A stretch of 12,700 bases of DNA. It comes from a virus. Positions 181 through 12,634 of the stretch are shown here, one piece after another. The stretch is taken from UHGV virus genome UHGV-0853290; one strand, 5' to 3'. A program made the translations under genes and the position numbers. A model generated the notes under the pieces. The model worked only from the letters and a program-made list of their open reading frames with translations, did no database searches and had not been told where the DNA came from. The first letter of the stretch is position 1. Each line of letters starts with the position of its first letter.

Positions 181-202
181 AAACAAGGCCGCGAAAGCGG
201 CC
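178..202 (-). terminator. rho-independent terminator downstream of the antirepressor gene
   Basis: Hairpin GGCCGCGAAAGCGGCC (187-202) followed on the minus strand by TTGTTTTTA (rc of 178-186). No U-run in the plus orientation. Confidence 0.55.
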
Positions 203-253: not shown

Positions 254-964
254 TCAGAAGAACCCTGCCTTGTCGTTGATGTACTCCGCGTGCGTCTGGA
301 TATCACGCAGGCATTTGCTCACACCGACGATGTAGCAGAACATGGTGGTCAGTTCCGCCGCCGCGCCCGATACGTCGTGCCCGTCTTCCTGTAACTGGTT
401 AAGCAGATTCATCAGCAGTGAGTTCTCCGTCAGGCCGAGAACACCAGACGGCGAGTGAATCAGGCTGCGGTAGCCTGGCTTCAGCGGGGCGCTGTAGGTT
501 TTGTTCTCTATCTTCATTGCCTGCAGCACTGCTGACGCCGTGGCGTTGGCTACCTGGTCGGCAACCATCTTTATACGTTCTTCCTGCGGGAGCGAGTTTT
601 TAATGTAACTTCCGGTGCGGCGGATCTGAGGAAGAACCTCACCTGTAACCCATTTACGAAAGCGGTAGGGGATAGTGCCTGGTGTCACCGCATCGCGGCA
701 GCGGAGGATCAGTGTGTAGAGGCCTGACTCGGAGATGATGTTGATCTCTTTTACTCGGCTGTCAAAAATTGCACGATGTTCATGCCCTATGTTGAACATA
801 GACCTTTCATCATCATCCAGTTTTTCAAGTGCTTGGGTGACGTTTTGGATACGCAGCGCACTACAAACGTCTTGGGCTACAAACCATGGTTGGCCATCGA
901 TAATGATGGAACGGATAGGGTTAACAGATTCAAATTTGAAGATGGCAGTTTGAGCATTAGCCAT
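254..964 (-). CDS. phage antirepressor, Bro-N N-terminal domain plus KilAC/ANT C-terminal domain
   Basis: ORF 254-979; preferred start is the ATG at 964 (MANAQTAIFKF...) preceded by GGAGAT. N-terminus matches the Bro-N pattern (PWFVAQDVCSAL, ISESGLYTLILR, KWVTGEVLPQIRRTGSY). Confidence 0.85.
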   Translation of the reverse strand: MANAQTAIFKFESVNPIRSIIIDGQPWFVAQDVCSALRIQNVTQALEKLDDDERSMFNIGHEHRAIFDSRVKEINIISESGLYTLILRCRDAVTPGTIPYRFRKWVTGEVLPQIRRTGSYIKNSLPQEERIKMVADQVANATASAVLQAMKIENKTYSAPLKPGYRSLIHSPSGVLGLTENSLLMNLLNQLQEDGHDVSGAAAELTTMFCYIVGVSKCLRDIQTHAEYINDKAGFF

Positions 965-1120
965 GGTGGTTATCTCCACTTAGTGATTTTAATCACCACC
1001 GCAACGCCAATTACTGGTGGTGAACTGGACAAGGTTGGCGTACCGGCCTAAGTGGTACCGGCGTCCTTTCGGACCCCTGCCCAGCCCACCATAATTCGGA
1101 TATAGCTGTGCTTAACGCAT

Positions 1121-1143
1121 AAAAAAACCACGTCTGGCGTGGT
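1121..1143 (-). terminator. minus-strand intrinsic terminator or attenuator upstream of the antirepressor gene
   Basis: Stem ACCACG / CGTGGT (1127-1132 / 1138-1143) with a 5-nt loop, followed on the minus strand by U7 (rc of A7 at 1121-1127). Confidence 0.4.
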
Positions 1144-1233
1144 ATGCGCCACTTAGTAACTCGGGACGCCAATCCCGGCACTGGATTTTGCCAGTGCCTG
1201 ATTACTATGGCACAAGAGGAGTGCGATGTAAAT

Positions 1234-1248
1234 TTACCTCAAAGGTAA
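1234..1248. promoter_or_regulatory. box A palindrome TTACC-N5-GGTAA (copy 1)
   Basis: TTACCtcaaaGGTAA, perfect half-sites; same motif at 2755, 5365, 12558, 12620 and near-perfect at 1359 and 7539. Confidence 0.5.
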
Positions 1249-1326: not shown

Positions 1327-1356
1327 TTGCCAGTATGCGTATACTTTCGATAGAAT
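1327..1356 (+). promoter_or_regulatory. sigma70-type promoter of the two-gene cassette
   Basis: -35 TTGCCA (1327-1332), 18-bp spacer, -10 TAGAAT (1351-1356); about 30 nt upstream of the ATG at 1386. Confidence 0.55.
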
Positions 1357-1358
1357 GT

Positions 1359-1373
1359 TTACCCTAGAGGTAG
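1359..1373. promoter_or_regulatory. box A-like operator TTACC-N5-GGTAG at the predicted transcription start
   Basis: TTACCctagaGGTAG immediately downstream of the -10 hexamer; one mismatch to the palindrome. Confidence 0.4.
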
Positions 1374-1385
1374 TTGGGGGTGCCC

Positions 1386-1901
1386 ATGAACACGAAGAGA
1401 GTTGCAGCGATGAGGCATAGACGCTTGACCTTGAAAAAGTCTGAAAAAGAAAAAGAGAAAAAGATGGTGATTGAAGCAGCCGCTTATGCTGCTGCCATAG
1501 CAACTGCCAATGCCATCAGGATTCATGATGAAGAAGTTGAGCAAAAATACCCGGTTATGTTCATCACTGAATACGACCAGCATGAGGCATTGTTAAAAAT
1601 CCGGGGCACATCTTTTGAAGGAATCTTGGCAGATAAGCTTCATCGTGCCTCATGTCAAACGAATATAATGCGACCTTACGAGTCAAGGCTAATCGAAACT
1701 GGACGCTCCAAGGATAAGCAGCAATTAGTTGAGATGATAAAGCGGTATTATAAGCCATCTTTTAAGCCTACAGCGTCACATGAGGTTGTAATGCGAGAAG
1801 TACCAAAGATGTCTGTTGAAAAATCGCATGCAATCTCGCGCAGGATGTTTGCACGCACTGCTGAAGATATGGCTCAGGAGCTCTACGACGATGCCGAATA
1901 A
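1386..1901 (+). CDS. hypothetical protein (171 aa), candidate antitoxin/partner of the downstream toxin-like gene
   Basis: ATG 1386 preceded by GGGGG; ORF open to TAA 1899-1901. Basic N-terminus (KRVAAMRHRRLTLKKSEKEKEKK) and acidic C-terminus (ELYDDAE). No family recognised. Its 3' end overlaps the start of the next gene by 11 nt. Confidence 0.6.
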   Translation: MNTKRVAAMRHRRLTLKKSEKEKEKKMVIEAAAYAAAIATANAIRIHDEEVEQKYPVMFITEYDQHEALLKIRGTSFEGILADKLHRASCQTNIMRPYESRLIETGRSKDKQQLVEMIKRYYKPSFKPTASHEVVMREVPKMSVEKSHAISRRMFARTAEDMAQELYDDAE

Positions 1902-2397
1902 ATTCCAGGGGTTGGTTCACCCTGGAATTTTTGGGAAGGACCCTGAGCTAATACCTATCAAAAACGCGTTCATAGATCACTGGCGCTACGGTCATCATAA
2001 GGATTTCGGAAAGGACACTCTGTTTCGGGATCCACCGAAAGAGATGCTGGAATATCACATACGCCACGTTCACGTAAACATCGGAAACTATACTGACAAG
2101 TTTGGTGAGAGCGGTACGGAACAATGCTGGAAAAACTGGGCATCCGGGAAGAAAGACAAGACCACCAACAAGCATAAAAAAATACCAACCAGTGATGTAT
2201 ATGTGATTTATCTTGTAACGTCTGAGCGACATGCGTTTCTTCTGGATTACTGGGATGAGCCAGCACACAAAAAAGTAGAAATTGACGAACAGAAACAAAA
2301 ACTTCTTGTCGAGTGTGACAGAATTTTGCGGCTGAAAAAGTTAGAATCCATGCCGCGCGATGCAAGTTTGTGGGACCCAGAATTTTACGACTGTTAA
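1891..2397 (+). CDS. YafO-family type II toxin-like protein (168 aa)
   Basis: ATG 1891 with AGGAG 10 nt upstream, overlapping the upstream stop. Motifs FGKDTLFRD, HIRHVHVN and VYVIYLVTSERHAFLLDYWDEPAHKK line up in order with my recollection of E. coli YafO (FGRDALYDD, HIHLAN, HLVYCQGAFDEQAWLLIAILKPEPHK). Confidence 0.55.
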   Translation: MPNKFQGLVHPGIFGKDPELIPIKNAFIDHWRYGHHKDFGKDTLFRDPPKEMLEYHIRHVHVNIGNYTDKFGESGTEQCWKNWASGKKDKTTNKHKKIPTSDVYVIYLVTSERHAFLLDYWDEPAHKKVEIDEQKQKLLVECDRILRLKKLESMPRDASLWDPEFYDC

Positions 2398-2398
2398 T

Positions 2399-2422
2399 GG
2401 CCGCTTTCGCGGCCTTTTCTTT
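2399..2422 (+). terminator. rho-independent terminator of the two-gene cassette
   Basis: Hairpin GGCCGCTTTCGCGGCC (2399-2414) followed by TTTTCTTT. The hairpin is the exact reverse complement of the one at 187-202. Confidence 0.7.
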
Positions 2423-2678
2423 ATGTGGTTTGTTTTCGTAATTGTTCGGCACAATAGTCGAGATGTGTTTGCAGATCCTGCATAGACATCTGCGAGCTGG
2501 TGACGTAGTTAATCAGTGCAGTCAGTTCGGCAAGTGGGCCATCGACATTAAATCCATCCTTATCGAGATCCCGGAGTAATTTCATCAAGTGCGATCCCTC
2601 CACCAGTGACCTGACGCCTCCCGGCGTGTGAATCCTTTCGGTAAATCCGTCTTCCAGTGGATAGTGATACTGCTGCAT
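2421..2678 (-). CDS. small KilAC/ANT C-terminal-domain protein (85 aa), paralog of the antirepressor C-terminus
   Basis: Start ATG at 2678 (MQQYHYPLEDG...) with GGAG 8 nt upstream. Aligns with the C-terminus of the 254-964 product (LAELT, DLQTH shared). The longer ORF-track version (to 2801) would run through the promoter and LexA box. Confidence 0.6.
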   Translation of the reverse strand: MQQYHYPLEDGFTERIHTPGGVRSLVEGSHLMKLLRDLDKDGFNVDGPLAELTALINYVTSSQMSMQDLQTHLDYCAEQLRKQTT

Positions 2679-2873: not shown

Positions 2874-4271
2874 ATGACGGTCTCAACCGAAGTTGACCAC
2901 AACGAATACACAGGTAACGGCGTTACGACATCGTTTCCGTATACCTTCAGGATTTTCCAGAAATCTGATCTGGTAGTACAAGTGGTTGACCTTGATGAAA
3001 ATATCACTGTTCTTGCTCTTGATACTGATTACGCAGTTACCGGGGCGGGAGGGTATAACGGTGGTAATGTAATTCTGTCGAAGGCGTTGGCTAACGGTTA
3101 TCAGATTTCTATATCTCGAGAGCTGCCGGTTACGCAGGAAACCGATCTGCGCAATCAAGGCAAGTTCTTTGCAGAGGTACATGAGGATGCGTTTGATAAG
3201 CTAACGATGTTGATCCAGCAGGTTAGAAGTTGGTTTAGCCTAGCGCTTCGCAAGCCATCATTCGTGGCAAACTATTATGATGCTCTGGGTAATTACATTC
3301 GCAATCTTCGTGACCCGTCACGACCTCAGGATGCGGCCACCAAGAATTATGTCGACTCTCTGGCAAATATTAACCTGTCGAGAACGTTGAGAACTCCAGA
3401 GGCAATACCTGAACTGCCTGGTGTAGAGCTGAGAAAAAATAAAATTGTAGCAATGGATAATGATGGCAATCCTATTATGGTATTGCCTGAATCAGGATCT
3501 GCTGCAGATGTTCTCATAGAGCTTGCAAAGCCAACTGGCGGCAGCCTGATTGGTTTACCTAACGGAACAGTGAGTGATGCAATTAATTATGTTACTCCAG
3601 AGATGTTTGGGGCAATAGGAGATGGTACTTTTCACGCTCTTTCTGAGCGTTTTGCGACACTGGCAGATGCGCAGGTTGTATACCCTCACGCCACATCACT
3701 TAGTCAGTCAATAGACTGGGCAGCAATGCAATCAGCTTTAAATTCTGGTTCTCAGACTCTGGATGTGAGTAAAGGAAATTATGTAGTAAACAGTAATTTA
3801 ACGGGAAACAAATCACTTCACTGGATCGGTGGAAGTGGTAAAAAGGTACAGATGATTGACGGATCTTTTATTCTTTTATCCGGGAGTCTTACTGCATTAC
3901 CTAAAATAACTGGCGGCATTAATCGCGTATCAAGGACGTTTACATTTGCATCTGTACCAGACTTATCAGCTGGCGATTCTTTTGTTGTATACAATCCGAC
4001 AGACTATAGTTGGTCTCATCACCGTGCCTACTACCGTGAAGGGGAGTTTTTCAAGGTTTTCAGCGCAACAGGAACCACGGTTAGCATCTACGGATTACCC
4101 TCGGATAATTATGTCGCCTCTGCGCTGGACGTTTATAAACTAAACGGAATTCGTGTTGTTCTTGATAATCTACACGTTGAAGGGGAAGACACATTAGATA
4201 GCGCACCTATAATTATCCGTTTCGGTCTTGATGTGGCGGTTAATAATTTTACCGGTAAAAAAATCAAATAA
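2874..4271 (+). CDS. tailspike/tail fiber protein, N-terminal fragment (T7 gp17-like N-terminal domain plus start of beta-helix), truncated by a frameshift
   Basis: ATG 2874 with GGAG 7 nt upstream. N-terminal pattern YTGNGVTTSFPYTF and NYIRNLRDPSRPQDAATKNYVDSL recalls the T7 tail-fibre N-terminal domain. Frame ends at TAA 4269-4271 just after an A7 run (4257-4263). Confidence 0.7.
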   Translation: MTVSTEVDHNEYTGNGVTTSFPYTFRIFQKSDLVVQVVDLDENITVLALDTDYAVTGAGGYNGGNVILSKALANGYQISISRELPVTQETDLRNQGKFFAEVHEDAFDKLTMLIQQVRSWFSLALRKPSFVANYYDALGNYIRNLRDPSRPQDAATKNYVDSLANINLSRTLRTPEAIPELPGVELRKNKIVAMDNDGNPIMVLPESGSAADVLIELAKPTGGSLIGLPNGTVSDAINYVTPEMFGAIGDGTFHALSERFATLADAQVVYPHATSLSQSIDWAAMQSALNSGSQTLDVSKGNYVVNSNLTGNKSLHWIGGSGKKVQMIDGSFILLSGSLTALPKITGGINRVSRTFTFASVPDLSAGDSFVVYNPTDYSWSHHRAYYREGEFFKVFSATGTTVSIYGLPSDNYVASALDVYKLNGIRVVLDNLHVEGEDTLDSAPIIIRFGLDVAVNNFTGKKIK

Positions 4272-5355
4272 TTATCAAATAGAGTTTGACCGTTGTTTTG
4301 GGGTTAATGTAAATACAGGTTCAGTAATAAACAATTCGCAAGGTTCTGATGAAGAATACGGGATTGTTATTTCAAACTGTACCGATGTTGTGGTTAATGG
4401 CGGTTCACATTACGCTAATCGCCACTGCATTGCAATTGGCGGACGAGGGGAAGTCTGCTCAATCCCTAACCGCAATATAAAAATTATTGGGGCTACTCTG
4501 CGTAACAATAGTGATGGGATTGGTGCTGCTGATATCCACGGAAACTCTGATAACATAGAATACTCCAACTGTGAATTATCATCAGCTAATATGGCTGGTC
4601 GTAACGTTAGGTACAAAAACTGCCGTATATTTCAAAGGCTGCGAGCAGACGGTTTATGTATTTACGGCTCTGAAATTGTCGGCGGGGTGTATGAAGTATC
4701 TAACTGCACTCTTATCACCCAGGGTGATCTCGACGCTTTTGGTGCTATAGCGTTGCAGGCTGCTAAGCCTATGAGAGAGAAATTCTCTCTCATAGTACGC
4801 AACATTACTGTTACTGGCGGTAATGGTGGCCCAAATGCAAAGTTAGTACATATCTTCTCTGCTGTTGGGGAAACACTCCCGATGGATGTTGATATCAGAG
4901 GAGTTCGCAATGAACTAACGGCGAGTATCGCAGTTCTTTACGCAAGACATACAACCAGCGCGGCAACCACGTTTATTTCCAATGGTTTCATTGTTGATGA
5001 TGTATACGGCCCACAAAATATGTATCTGGTGTATCCAAGTGGCACAGGTATTTCATCAATACCAACAAGGGAAATGGCACAAACAGGAAGCGTCACGATA
5101 ACATCGGCAGCAAATGCATTTAATACAGCTAGTGGCACTACGTCATTCAGGTACGGATACTCAAAGAAACCTAAATGCTCGTTTGGTGTTTCTTCGCCAA
5201 CAGGTTCGGCATTTACTAATCCTGGTCAGCCACCAGTGGCTCTCGCGTATAAGATATCAGGCACGGGTATCATACCAGCTATTACTGCGGCATCGGCATT
5301 CACAGCAGGTGTGGATGTTGATGTGAGCTGGAGCGTGAAAATATCTGACATTTAA
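4231..5355 (+). CDS. tailspike C-terminal fragment (right-handed beta-helix, depolymerase-like), in the +1 frame
   Basis: Frame open from 4228 to TAA 5353-5355; repeated Gly/Asn/Cys-rich beta-helix-like turns (VVNGGSHYANRHCIAIGG, NCTLITQG). Removing one A from the run at 4257-4263 fuses it to 2874-4271. Confidence 0.65.
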   Translation: MWRLIILPVKKSNNYQIEFDRCFGVNVNTGSVINNSQGSDEEYGIVISNCTDVVVNGGSHYANRHCIAIGGRGEVCSIPNRNIKIIGATLRNNSDGIGAADIHGNSDNIEYSNCELSSANMAGRNVRYKNCRIFQRLRADGLCIYGSEIVGGVYEVSNCTLITQGDLDAFGAIALQAAKPMREKFSLIVRNITVTGGNGGPNAKLVHIFSAVGETLPMDVDIRGVRNELTASIAVLYARHTTSAATTFISNGFIVDDVYGPQNMYLVYPSGTGISSIPTREMAQTGSVTITSAANAFNTASGTTSFRYGYSKKPKCSFGVSSPTGSAFTNPGQPPVALAYKISGTGIIPAITAASAFTAGVDVDVSWSVKISDI

Positions 5356-5364
5356 ATTTATCGT

Positions 5365-5379
5365 TTACCTTAATGGTAA
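5365..5379. promoter_or_regulatory. box A palindrome TTACC-N5-GGTAA (copy 3)
   Basis: TTACCttaatGGTAA, 10 nt after the tailspike stop codon. Confidence 0.5.
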
Positions 5380-5409: not shown

Positions 5410-5422
5410 CCATATATGGTTT
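5410..5422 (+). promoter_or_regulatory. box B CCATATATGGTTT (copy 3)
   Basis: Lies 30 nt downstream of box A copy 3; followed 6 nt later by the -10-like hexamer TATGAT (5429-5434). Confidence 0.45.
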
Positions 5423-5483
5423 ATTGTGTATGATGAACTCACCAACTAAGGGGGTTCATTATGCACGGTAAACGGTGGTTTAT

Positions 5484-7289: not shown

Positions 7290-7570
7290 TCATGGTACTG
7301 ATTTCCGGTGACGGTATATAAAACGGTACGGTAAAAATCTGTTTTTGGAAAGTTGTTACCAGTCAATTGGTTATGCTTACCGTAAATAATTGAGTGGGAA
7401 TGATTAACAGCTAACTCATAGCAACTCATTCCTATTCAGATACTAATTTAACCCTCTGTTTTTACAGAGGGTTTTTGTTTTTATGTATTCATTTCTATTC
7501 ACTCTACACCATATTTTTCTGCGGTACAGGTGACGGTATTACCTTAAAGGTATACTCTCATACCGTCATG
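7290..7570. other. attP-like region with clustered integrase arm-type repeats
   Basis: GGTGACGGTAT at 7307-7317 and again at 7529-7539; inverted copy ATACCGTCA at 7560-7568; further ACGGTA/CGGTAA units at 7323-7334 and TTACCGTAA at 7377-7385. Sits directly upstream of the integrase gene. Confidence 0.4.
7451..7482 (+). terminator. rho-independent terminator of the lysis operon
   Basis: Stem ACCCTCTG / CAGAGGGT with loop TTTTTA, followed by TTTTTGTTTTT. Confidence 0.8.
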
Positions 7571-12557: not shown

Positions 12558-12572
12558 TTACCGTCGAGGTAA
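12558..12572. promoter_or_regulatory. box A operator TTACC-N5-GGTAA overlapping the early promoter -10/+1
   Basis: TTACCgtcgaGGTAA; nested in a larger inverted repeat TTACCTCG-N12-CGAGGTAA (12545-12572). Confidence 0.5.
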
Positions 12573-12619: not shown

Positions 12620-12634
12620 TTACCCATAAGGTAA
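12620..12634. promoter_or_regulatory. box A operator TTACC-N5-GGTAA upstream of the early promoter -35
   Basis: TTACCcataaGGTAA, 19 bp upstream of the -35 hexamer. Confidence 0.5.

What the first reader, a model, noticed from the sequence alone, without database searches (positions are those of the whole stretch)
1327..2422. Self-contained two-gene cassette: unrecognised 171-aa protein coupled to a YafO-family toxin-like protein
Seen directly: a sigma70-like promoter (TTGCCA-N18-TAGAAT, 1327-1356) drives two plus-strand genes (1386-1901 and 1891-2397) whose reading frames overlap by 11 nt, ending at a strong hairpin terminator (2399-2422). The unit is bracketed by operator-like TTACC-N5-GGTAA boxes (1234-1248 and 1359-1373) and sits between antirepressor-type genes on the opposite strand. 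From memory of the family: the second product shares ordered motifs with E. coli YafO, a ribosome-dependent mRNA interferase toxin. Inference: the first product, with a strongly basic N-terminus and acidic C-terminal tail, resembles nothing I know, including YafN-type antitoxins, so this may be a toxin-antitoxin or abortive-infection module with a new partner protein, carried as a phage moron.
Basis: partly seen in the sequence, partly recalled or inferred. Interest (0 to 1): 0.8.

Follow-up and report, generated by a model that had tools for sequence, protein, structure and literature searches.

The report
Phage YafO-type toxin with unrecognised partner
A temperate E. coli phage carries a two-gene unit made of a YafO-family RNA-cutting toxin and an upstream protein from no described family. 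The upstream protein probably blocks the toxin with its conserved 38-residue tail, so this looks like an ordinary kind of toxin-antitoxin pair with a new, interchangeable partner.

Summary
Two plus-strand genes (1386-1901, 171 aa; 1891-2397, 168 aa) overlap by 11 nt. They lie behind a sigma70-like promoter (1327-1356) and end at a GC hairpin terminator (2399-2422), between an Ant/BRO-N gene and an Ant-C-terminal paralogue in an epsilon15/phiV10-like (Uetakevirus) phage.

ORF2 is a distant, long-form member of the YafO family:
- It has no direct Pfam hit, but 25 of 46 profile-retrieved relatives hit PF13957.
- hhalign to K-12 YafO gives 94.5% probability.
- RefSeq already labels it a YafO-family toxin.

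ORF1 matches nothing in Pfam, NCBIfam, PADLOC or PDB.
- In 51 of 51 loci an upstream gene overlaps the toxin start by 11 or 14 nt.
- Only its last ~38 residues are conserved. They track toxin divergence and are under strong purifying selection (dN/dS 0.03-0.08).
- The rest of the protein is swapped among unrelated forms. There are three discrete alleles in the 58 E. coli genomes that carry the toxin.

The "operator boxes" are real, but they are a phage-wide motif: 7 in the window against 0.24 expected, and 17 in a full genome. They cluster around the repressor gene, so the cassette is probably controlled by the phage repressor.

Verdict: a new variant of a known kind, of moderate interest. Toxicity and neutralisation are untested.

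The parts
1327..1356 (+). Sigma70-like promoter of the cassette, TTGCCA-N18-TAGAAT, preceded by a T-run
   Evidence: Found by the scan, 10 of 12 matches. The T-run, TTGCCA, the spacer and the -10 hexamer are conserved in diverged loci. Not shown experimentally.
1359..1373 (.). TTACC-CTAGA-GGTAG box (one mismatch to TTACC-N5-GGTAA), 2 nt after the -10 hexamer and over the expected transcription start. Candidate operator for the phage's general repressor.
   Evidence: A box occupies the same position in loci with unrelated partner N-termini. The identity of the binding protein is inferred.
1376..1380 (+). Ribosome-binding site (GGGGG) for ORF1
   Evidence: Read from the sequence.
1386..1901 (+). 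ORF1, 171 aa. Putative antitoxin or inhibitor from an undescribed family (PHROG 9503, function unknown).
   Evidence: No Pfam, NCBIfam, PADLOC or PDB match. The AlphaFold model is all-helical and of low confidence, pLDDT 62.7.
1386..1523 (+). ORF1 residues 1-46: basic N-terminal helix, +7 net charge over residues 1-30. Conserved within the 'MNTKR' class of partners.
   Evidence: dN/dS 0.33-0.56 for the three same-class pairs (L008, L015, L016).
1524..1784 (+). ORF1 residues 47-133: replaceable central region. This allele is in 4 of the 58 E. coli genomes that carry the toxin.
   Evidence: DNA identity to L008 and L011 falls to 16-60% here, while the flanks are mostly 90-100%. Allele counts are 4, 15 and 39.
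1785..1898 (+). ORF1 residues 134-171: conserved C-terminal tail (VMREVPKMSVEKSHAISRRMFARTAEDMAQELYDDAE) with an acidic end. Inferred toxin-binding module.
   Evidence: Nearly invariant across partners with unrelated N-termini. 24 distinct tails align without gaps. Tail identity tracks toxin identity. dN/dS 0.03-0.08 where dS is 0.55-2.3.
1876..1880 (+). Ribosome-binding site (AGGAG) for ORF2, inside the ORF1 tail codons
   Evidence: Read from the sequence.
1891..2397 (+). ORF2, 168 aa. Long-form YafO-family toxin with a RelE/ParE (BECR) fold, a putative translation-dependent mRNA endonuclease (PHROG 1651).
   Evidence: dN/dS 0.02-0.16.
2399..2422 (+). Intrinsic terminator: GGCCGCTTTCGCGGCC hairpin followed by TTTTCTTT
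   Evidence: The same hairpin, inverted, lies at 187-202 after the ant gene.
1234..1248 (.). Perfect TTACC-N5-GGTAA box at the start of the divergent minus-strand promoter (1277-1248) of the isrK/c4/ant operon. This is context, not part of the cassette.

Best explanation
The unit is a type II toxin-antitoxin-like pair carried by an epsilon15/phiV10-like temperate podophage.

ORF2 is a long-form YafO-family protein with the RelE/ParE (BECR) fold. It most likely cuts mRNA during translation, as E. coli YafO does. This activity is inferred from family membership and retained family-invariant residues; it was not assayed.

ORF1 is made first and is translationally coupled to ORF2 through the 11-nt overlap. 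It most likely holds the toxin inactive by binding it with its conserved, acidic-ended C-terminal ~38 residues. This is inferred from co-variation and selection.

The rest of ORF1 is a basic N-terminal helix plus a ~90-residue centre. This part is exchangeable: unrelated versions are joined to the same tail and toxin, and E. coli genomes hold three discrete alleles.

Transcription starts at a private sigma70-type promoter whose start site is covered by a copy of the phage-wide TTACC-N5-GGTAA motif. That motif clusters around the repressor gene, so expression is probably set by the phage repressor rather than by a DNA-binding domain in the antitoxin (inference). Transcription stops at the hairpin at 2399-2422.

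The biological role is not resolved. The options are exclusion of other phages, prophage retention, or mRNA turnover after derepression. I rank exclusion or abortive infection first, but weakly.
For: Toxin identity:
- Relatives at 41-66% identity give PF13957 hits of 18-25 bits.
- 25 of 46 full-length proteins from an exhaustive profile search hit PF13957, best E 5.5e-14.
- hhalign of the family profile against K-12 YafO gives 94.5% probability, E 8e-8, over 111 columns.
- The F, G, FG[KR]D, HxH, Y and [AP]H positions are shared with YafO.
- The antitoxin-then-toxin gene order is the one listed for the YafO family (PMC11980606).
- K-12 YafO is toxic and cleaves translated mRNA (PMC2814082).

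Pairing:
- 51 of 51 loci have an upstream co-oriented ORF that overlaps the toxin start by 11 or 14 nt.
- Tail identity tracks toxin identity, Spearman 0.75. When toxins are 60-80% identical, tails are 71% identical on average and the N-parts 20%.
- Selection: toxin dN/dS is 0.02-0.16 and tail dN/dS is 0.03-0.08 where dS is 0.55-2.3, so the conservation is at the protein level and not just recent shared DNA.
- More distant relatives have a small upstream ORF. TL-2011b gp44 has the 59-aa gp45, overlapping by 26 nt. Acinetobacter plasmid copies have 47-73-aa ORFs.

Regulation:
- The promoter and terminator are found by the scan.
- The box geometry at the transcription start recurs at two other promoter-like sites in the window, so at three in all.
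- The motif occurs 7 times against 0.24 expected in the window, and 17 times against 0.85 expected in a complete related phage, including five sites around the repressor gene.
Against: - The window's ORF2 gives no direct Pfam or NCBIfam hit even at E<=10. Membership rests on profiles and fold.
- Compared with K-12 YafO it has a ~33-residue insertion and a ~22-residue C-terminal extension, so its activity could differ.
- No binding, toxicity or neutralisation was tested, and no complex could be modelled.
- ORF1 is long for an antitoxin at 171 aa. It has no recognisable DNA-binding domain and only a low-confidence model.
- The tail profile does not detect YafN, TL-2011b gp45 or the Acinetobacter small partners; the best is E 0.66. 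A common origin of these partners is therefore not shown.
- The tail lies directly next to the toxin gene, so part of the co-variation reflects linkage.
- Some Klebsiella-type loci lack a full box at the cassette promoter.
- PADLOC does not recognise the pair.
Confidence: 0.7

Rival explanations
1. The unit is a lytic-programme RNase, not a toxin-antitoxin addiction or defence module. ORF2 would be a phage mRNA endonuclease, comparable to T4 RegB, which is reported to have a RelE/YoeB-like fold (from my own knowledge; not checked here). It would be switched on when the repressor is lost, to degrade host or early phage mRNA. ORF1 would time or target it.
For: The cassette promoter carries the same box as the ant, tailspike-side, lysis, int and early-left promoter regions. 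This suggests co-repression in the lysogen and expression on derepression. ORF2 has the RelE/ParE fold. The partners are larger and more varied than typical antitoxins.
Against: The box at the cassette is imperfect in the whole E. coli group (GGTAG) and absent from that position in some Klebsiella loci. That is compatible with leaky or constitutive expression. The tight overlap, the upstream position and the co-evolving tail of the partner are the classic toxin-antitoxin layout. Distant relatives sit on small plasmids with small upstream ORFs, a maintenance-type context with no lytic programme. The cassette is optional: few phages of this group carry it.
Confidence: 0.15
2. The two genes are only neighbours. 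ORF1 would have its own unrelated function, for example a regulatory or nucleic-acid-binding moron product. ORF2 would be a degenerate or repurposed YafO-like protein without toxicity.
For: ORF1 has no similarity to any antitoxin. ORF2 fails the direct Pfam test and carries a large insertion.
Against: Pairing with an overlap is seen in 51 of 51 loci. Purifying selection on ORF2 is very strong, dN/dS 0.02-0.16, and the family-invariant residues are retained. Only the tail of ORF1 is conserved, and it diverges in step with ORF2 while everything else is swapped.
Confidence: 0.1
3. The cassette is a chance arrangement of ORFs and consensus matches and does not encode expressed genes.
For: A promoter-like match alone is no more frequent than in shuffled sequence.
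Against: Both ORFs are intact and full length in all 51 loci and in 58 of 58 E. coli genomes that carry the toxin gene. dN/dS is well below 1. Both belong to PHROG families. ORF2 gives a confident fold.
Confidence: 0.01

Closest known systems
E. coli K-12 YafN-YafO (type II TA; toxin family Pfam PF13957, RelE/ParE BECR superfamily)
   Same: The order is antitoxin gene first, then the toxin. The toxin shares the F, G, FG[KR]D, HxH, Y and [AP]H positions, and profile-level homology is 94.5% probability. By inference the activity is the same, translation-linked mRNA cleavage (PMC2814082).
   Different: Pairwise identity is only 31% over 54 aa, and there is no direct Pfam hit. The toxin is 168 aa against 132 aa, with a ~33-residue insertion and a ~22-residue C-terminal extension. 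The partner is not a Phd/YefM-type YafN; it is a 171-aa protein from no described family. The pair is phage-borne with a phage-type operator, not part of the LexA-controlled dinB operon.
HigB2 (V. cholerae, PDB 5mje) and HigB1 (M. tuberculosis, PDB 7nbu), ribosome-dependent mRNases
   Different: Sequence identity is 13-15%. higBA loci have the reverse gene order, with the toxin first. HigA antitoxins are HTH proteins.
Escherichia phage TL-2011b gp45-gp44
   Same: It is a related phage with a YafO-family toxin (32% identical to ORF2) next to a Bro-N gene. A small upstream gene overlaps the toxin gene.
   Different: The partner is only 59 aa (PHROG 6685): a basic N-terminus plus a short C-terminal part. 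Similarity to the ORF1 tail is not significant, E 0.66. The pair is in the opposite orientation and at a different position in the immI region.
Modular type II antitoxins in general (exchangeable N-terminal domain plus C-terminal toxin-neutralising segment)
   Same: A conserved C-terminal neutralising segment is joined to interchangeable N-terminal parts. The toxin and the neutralising segment are inherited together.
   Different: None of ten N-terminal classes has a recognisable DNA-binding fold (HTH, RHH, AbrB or Phd). The promoter's operator is a phage-wide motif that stays the same while the N-terminal class changes.
Phage P1 immunity: C1 operators scattered over the genome plus the immI c4-ant module
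   Same: The window has a c4 antisense RNA, its a1/b1 targets and an ant gene. It also has one palindromic motif at many transcription units and around the repressor gene. By analogy the cassette would belong to the repressor regulon.
   Different: The motif (TTACC-N5-GGTAA) is symmetric and unlike the asymmetric P1 C1 operator (recalled from memory). The phage is a podovirus of the epsilon15 group. Binding by the repressor is not shown.

Membership tests
YafO toxin family (Pfam PF13957) | Direct significant match of the protein to the PF13957 model at or above the gathering score (25 bits) | tested here: not met
   No hit for ORF2 at E<=1 or E<=10, with either start codon. No NCBIfam hit.
YafO toxin family (Pfam PF13957) | Homology to YafO demonstrable through intermediates or profiles | tested here: met
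   Relatives at 41-66% identity score 18-25 bits on PF13957. 25 of 46 family members hit it, best E 5.5e-14. hhalign of the family profile against K-12 YafO gives 94.5% probability, E 8.3e-8.
YafO toxin family (Pfam PF13957) | Retention of the residues invariant across the family (F27, G34, G40-K-D42, H59/H61, Y107, H126 in ORF2 numbering) | tested here: met
   Invariant columns. The same positions are occupied in K-12 YafO in the joint alignment. Their catalytic role is not established.
RelE/ParE (BECR-fold) toxin superfamily | RelE-like alpha/beta fold | tested here: met
YafN-YafO type pair | Partner is a Phd/YefM-family antitoxin (YafN) | tested here: not met
   ORF1 has no Pfam hit. The tail profile does not find YafN among the ORFs of the K-12 locus.
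Type II toxin-antitoxin system | Two small adjacent co-oriented genes, closely spaced or overlapping, in one transcription unit | tested here: met
   The layout is conserved in 51 of 51 loci.
Type II toxin-antitoxin system | Toxin arrests growth; antitoxin neutralises it by direct binding | not testable with these tools
   Support is indirect only: tail-toxin co-variation and purifying selection on both.
Type II toxin-antitoxin system | Antitoxin carries a DNA-binding domain and autoregulates the operon | tested here: inconclusive
   No DNA-binding domain was recognised in ORF1 or in the nine other partner classes with full Pfam-negative scans. The operator-like box is a phage-wide motif that does not depend on the partner class. 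A basic N-terminal helix exists, but DNA binding is untested.
Known anti-phage defence systems (PADLOC-DB v2) | Match of either protein to a defence-system model | tested here: not met
   No hit at E<=1 for either protein.

The most novel reading that the evidence does not exclude
ORF1 may be the founding member of an undescribed antitoxin family built as a fixed C-terminal toxin clamp plus an interchangeable N-terminal/central module. That module would be the trigger sensor of a prophage-borne abortive-infection system, with different alleles responding to different invading phages. Transcriptional control would be handed over to the prophage's own genome-wide repressor instead of an antitoxin DNA-binding domain.
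Probability: 0.2. Interest if true: 0.65.

Novelty: new variant of a known kind. Interest (0 to 1): 0.42.

Why it matters
The toxin side adds little. It is a divergent YafO-family member that RefSeq already names.

The partner is the useful part. It defines an unannotated protein family (PHROG 9503 and several unrelated sister forms). The only shared element is a ~38-residue C-terminal tail under strong selection, joined to at least six unrelated N-terminal bodies.

If the tail is the neutralising element, it gives a compact handle for finding more YafO-type pairs that current antitoxin models miss. It would also be a natural system for asking what the variable part of an antitoxin does: sensing, stability or targeting.

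The cassette promoter shares a motif with most transcription units of the phage. This suggests a toxin-antitoxin pair wired into a phage repressor regulon, which would be an uncommon regulatory arrangement worth a simple reporter test.

The YafO family has no solved structure, so a complex structure would be new information.

Tried and rejected
- Direct family scans of both proteins (Pfam, NCBIfam, PADLOC) gave nothing. PHROGs gave only unknown-function families.
- PDB sequence searches with single sequences and with profiles gave only chance-level hits.
- The afdb50 fold library was unavailable. The BFVD viral fold library gave nothing with E<=0.001.
- The ORF1 AlphaFold model was too poor (pLDDT 62.7, pTM 0.23) for a fold search.
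- A profile of 24 partner tails, searched against the ORFs of distant loci, did not significantly detect TL-2011b gp45 (E 0.66), the Acinetobacter small partners or YafN. I therefore do not claim that these partners share an origin.
- The long multi-stretch hits in the representative search (P0084, P0096, P0104, P0113) are RCC1-repeat proteins and were rejected as spurious.
- I first read the centre of ORF1 as 'hypervariable'. Counting alleles in E. coli showed three discrete forms, each at least 99% uniform (4 + 15 + 39 = 58). Cassette exchange fits better than continuous diversification.
- I considered the boxes as a private autoregulatory operator bound by ORF1 and rejected it. The same motif sits at the cassette promoter in loci with unrelated partner N-termini, and at many other promoters.
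- Literature searches found no paper on this cassette, on YafO-like toxins in this phage group, or on the motif.
Full report
**1. What is in the sequence**

The window is part of a temperate podophage of the epsilon15/phiV10 group (Uetakevirus). It carries:
- a BRO-N/Ant anti-repressor gene (254-979, minus strand);
- a tailspike region;
- holins, a GH19 endolysin and a spanin;
- an integrase;
- a methyltransferase;
- RecT and a YqaJ-type exonuclease.

A 99%-identical prophage lies in E. coli E275a, and a related free phage is EC.W1-9.

The finding's coordinates are correct. ORF1 runs 1386-1901 (171 aa) and ORF2 runs 1891-2397 (168 aa), and they overlap by 11 nt. Each has a ribosome-binding site: GGGGG at 1376-1380 and AGGAG at 1876-1880.

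The scan reports TTGCCA-N18-TAGAAT at 1327-1356 and a six-GC-pair hairpin with a T-run at 2399-2422. A promoter-like match alone is not above chance here (3 found, 4.3 expected). However, the T-run, TTGCCA, the spacer and the -10 hexamer persist in loci whose neighbouring DNA has diverged.

The left flank is an Ant gene. The right flank (2424-2678, minus strand) is an 85-aa paralogue of the Ant C-terminal domain, 42% identical over 74 aa, E 1e-15.

**2. ORF2 is a distant YafO-family toxin**

The window protein itself gives no hit in Pfam, NCBIfam or PADLOC. BLASTP against K-12 YafO gives only 31% over 54 aa. RefSeq nevertheless names the orthologue 'type II toxin-antitoxin system YafO family toxin'. 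The name stands up at profile level:
- Relatives at 41-66% identity score 18-25 bits on PF13957.
- An exhaustive profile search of 1.84 billion representatives returns only 69 clusters. 25 of the 46 full-length ones hit PF13957, best E 5.5e-14.
- hhalign of that family profile against K-12 YafO gives 94.5% probability, E 8e-8, over 111 columns.

In a joint alignment the family-invariant positions are all shared with YafO. These are F27, G34, G40-K-D42, H59/H61, Y107 and H126. ORF2 also has a ~33-residue insertion (residues 66-98, containing the subfamily's conserved W80 and W83) and a ~22-residue C-terminal extension.

The YafO family is one of 13 BECR-fold toxin families and has the antitoxin-then-toxin gene order (PMC11980606). 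K-12 YafO arrests growth and cleaves translated mRNA (PMC2814082). No relative of ORF2 was found among solved structures by sequence search.

**3. ORF1 is unrecognised, but its tail is tied to the toxin**

ORF1 matches only PHROG 9503, of unknown function, and nothing in Pfam, NCBIfam, PADLOC or PDB. Its AlphaFold model is helical but unreliable (pLDDT 62.7).

Homologue searches showed that proteins with unrelated N-terminal ~130 residues share its last ~38 residues almost exactly.

I collected 51 loci: the window, an E. coli prophage, and Klebsiella and other phage contigs. In every one, an upstream co-oriented ORF of 108-190 aa overlaps the toxin start by 11 or 14 nt. The 24 distinct tails align without gaps. 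The shared pattern is P-[KR]-x-[KN]-x-[ML]-[ST], then E, then [LI]-S, ending in [FY]-D-x-x-E at the C-terminus.

Tail identity follows toxin identity (Spearman 0.75):

| Toxin identity | Tail identity | Rest of partner |
|---|---|---|
| 60-80% | 71% on average | 20% on average |
| >=95% | >=89% | as low as 24% |

Selection analysis shows this is not just recent shared DNA. Tail dN/dS is 0.03-0.08 where dS is 0.55-2.3, and toxin dN/dS is 0.02-0.16. The N-terminal and central parts are at 0.2-0.56.

At the DNA level, L008 and L011 are mostly 90-100% identical to the window (82-100% per bin) across the promoter, tail and toxin. Identity drops to 16-60% across the central part of ORF1, roughly 1486-1786.

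Ten partner classes were scanned. None has a Pfam domain.

**4. Distribution**

The toxin gene is present, full length and chromosomal, in 58 of 5426 complete E. coli genomes. Their partners fall into exactly three discrete central alleles, each at least 99% uniform:
- the window type in 4 genomes;
- the L008 type in 15;
- the L011 type in 39.

Among deposited phages only EC.W1-9 has the same cassette. TL-2011b has a 32%-identical YafO-family toxin with a 59-aa overlapping partner next to its Bro-N gene.

More distant relatives sit on small Acinetobacter plasmids behind 47-73-aa ORFs. A tail profile does not significantly detect these small partners or YafN, so a common origin is not shown.

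**5. The 'operator boxes' are a phage-wide motif**

TTACC-N5-GGTAA, allowing one mismatch, occurs 7 times in the window against 0.24 expected. The sites are:
- the ant/c4 promoter (1234);
- the cassette promoter (1359, with one mismatch, GGTAG);
- the divergent region before the tailspike (2755);
- before the lysis genes (5365);
- before int (7539);
- twice at the early-left promoter (12558 and 12620).

At three sigma70-like promoters the box starts at or just after the -10 hexamer.

In the complete EC.W1-9 genome there are 17 boxes against 0.85 expected. Nearly all are intergenic, and five lie on the two sides of the putative repressor gene.

A box sits at the same position of the cassette promoter in phages whose partner N-termini are unrelated: L021, L027, L029, L031, L033, L045 and L046. 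Some Klebsiella loci lack it.

I infer that this is the operator of the phage's immunity repressor and that the cassette belongs to that regulon. The antitoxin's own N-terminus is unlikely to be what binds the box. The binding itself is not shown.

**6. Most likely mechanism and rivals**

Best explanation (0.7): a type II toxin-antitoxin-like pair.
- ORF2 is a YafO-type mRNA endonuclease linked to translation.
- ORF1 is made first, is translationally coupled to ORF2, and neutralises it through its C-terminal tail.
- The rest of ORF1 is an exchangeable module of unknown role.
- Transcription is from a private promoter gated by the phage-wide operator.

Shown: the gene structure, family and fold of ORF2, conserved pairing, tail-toxin co-variation and selection, and motif enrichment.

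Inferred: toxicity, binding, repressor control and biological role.

Rivals:
- A lytic-phase RNase with a regulator (0.15). The shared operator favours it. The classic toxin-antitoxin layout, the plasmid relatives and the optional nature of the cassette count against it.
- Unrelated neighbours, or a dead toxin (0.1). The 51-of-51 pairing and the strong selection count against it.
- Chance ORFs (0.01).

**7. Comparison and novelty**

It works like YafN-YafO and other RelE-type pairs. ORF2 is a YafO-family member by profile, motif and fold, but not by the direct Pfam threshold. ORF1 is not YafN.

The toxin call is already in RefSeq. The partner family, its clamp-plus-exchangeable-body design and the apparent wiring to a phage repressor are the new elements. 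I rate it a new variant of a known kind, interest about 0.4.

The most novel reading that the evidence does not exclude is that the exchangeable body is a trigger sensor of an abortive-infection system. I give that about 0.2 probability.

Noticed in passing
window 1234-1248, 1359-1373, 2755-2769, 5365-5379, 7539-7553, 12558-12572, 12620-12634; L061 (EC.W1-9), 17 sites: The palindrome TTACC-N5-GGTAA is strongly over-represented: 7 against 0.24 expected in the window, and 17 against 0.85 expected in a whole phage genome. It lies in nearly every intergenic or promoter region, with five sites around the repressor gene. This looks like a P1-style scattered-operator regulon for an epsilon15-group phage. 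I found no description of it in the papers searched.
   Followed up: partly
window 1013-1210, minus strand: Rfam finds isrK (1121-1197, 67 bits), the C4 antisense RNA (1013-1096, 66 bits) and its a1/b1 target element (1158-1210, just below the gathering score) upstream of the BRO-N ant gene. This is a P1/P7-type immI antisense control of the anti-repressor, transcribed from the minus-strand promoter at 1277-1248.
   Followed up: partly
window ~1281-1293, ~2798-2810, ~5418-5430: A second recurring motif, CC(A/C)TAT(G/A)TGGTTT, lies 30-40 nt from three of the TTACC boxes. On the minus strand it reads AAACCAyATAkGG just upstream of -35-like hexamers. It could be an UP-like or activator site, or a module-boundary sequence.
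   Followed up: no
window 187-202 and 2399-2414: The same 16-nt hairpin, GGCCGC-N4-GCGGCC, closes both the ant gene (minus strand) and the toxin cassette (plus strand). This suggests a shared terminator or module boundary.
   Followed up: no
window 2424-2678 (minus) versus 254-979 (minus): The 85-aa gene to the right of the cassette is a paralogue of the C-terminal domain of the Ant protein to its left (42% over 74 aa; both match PHROG 450). The cassette therefore sits between a full Ant gene and a stand-alone Ant-C domain gene.
   Followed up: partly
window 2874-5355: The tailspike region reads as two overlapping ORFs in different frames (2874-4271, 465 aa; 4228-5355, 375 aa), whereas related prophages have one tail-protein gene. 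This could be a frameshift, a sequencing error, or a genuine two-gene spike.
   Followed up: no
L003-L005 and L007 (Klebsiella-type phage loci): The same Ant-to-tailspike interval in related phages also holds DUF1902 genes, paired with a HicA-toxin gene in L005. This stretch therefore seems to be a general landing site for toxin-antitoxin cassettes.
   Followed up: no
one search hits P0084, P0089, P0096, P0104, P0113: Large RCC1-repeat proteins score up to E 1e-9 against the YafO-like profile through many short stretches. Pfam shows four of them (P0084, P0096, P0104, P0113) to be RCC1 propellers, so these are spurious repeat-driven hits; P0089 was not scanned. This is a caution for anyone reusing the profile.
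   Followed up: yes
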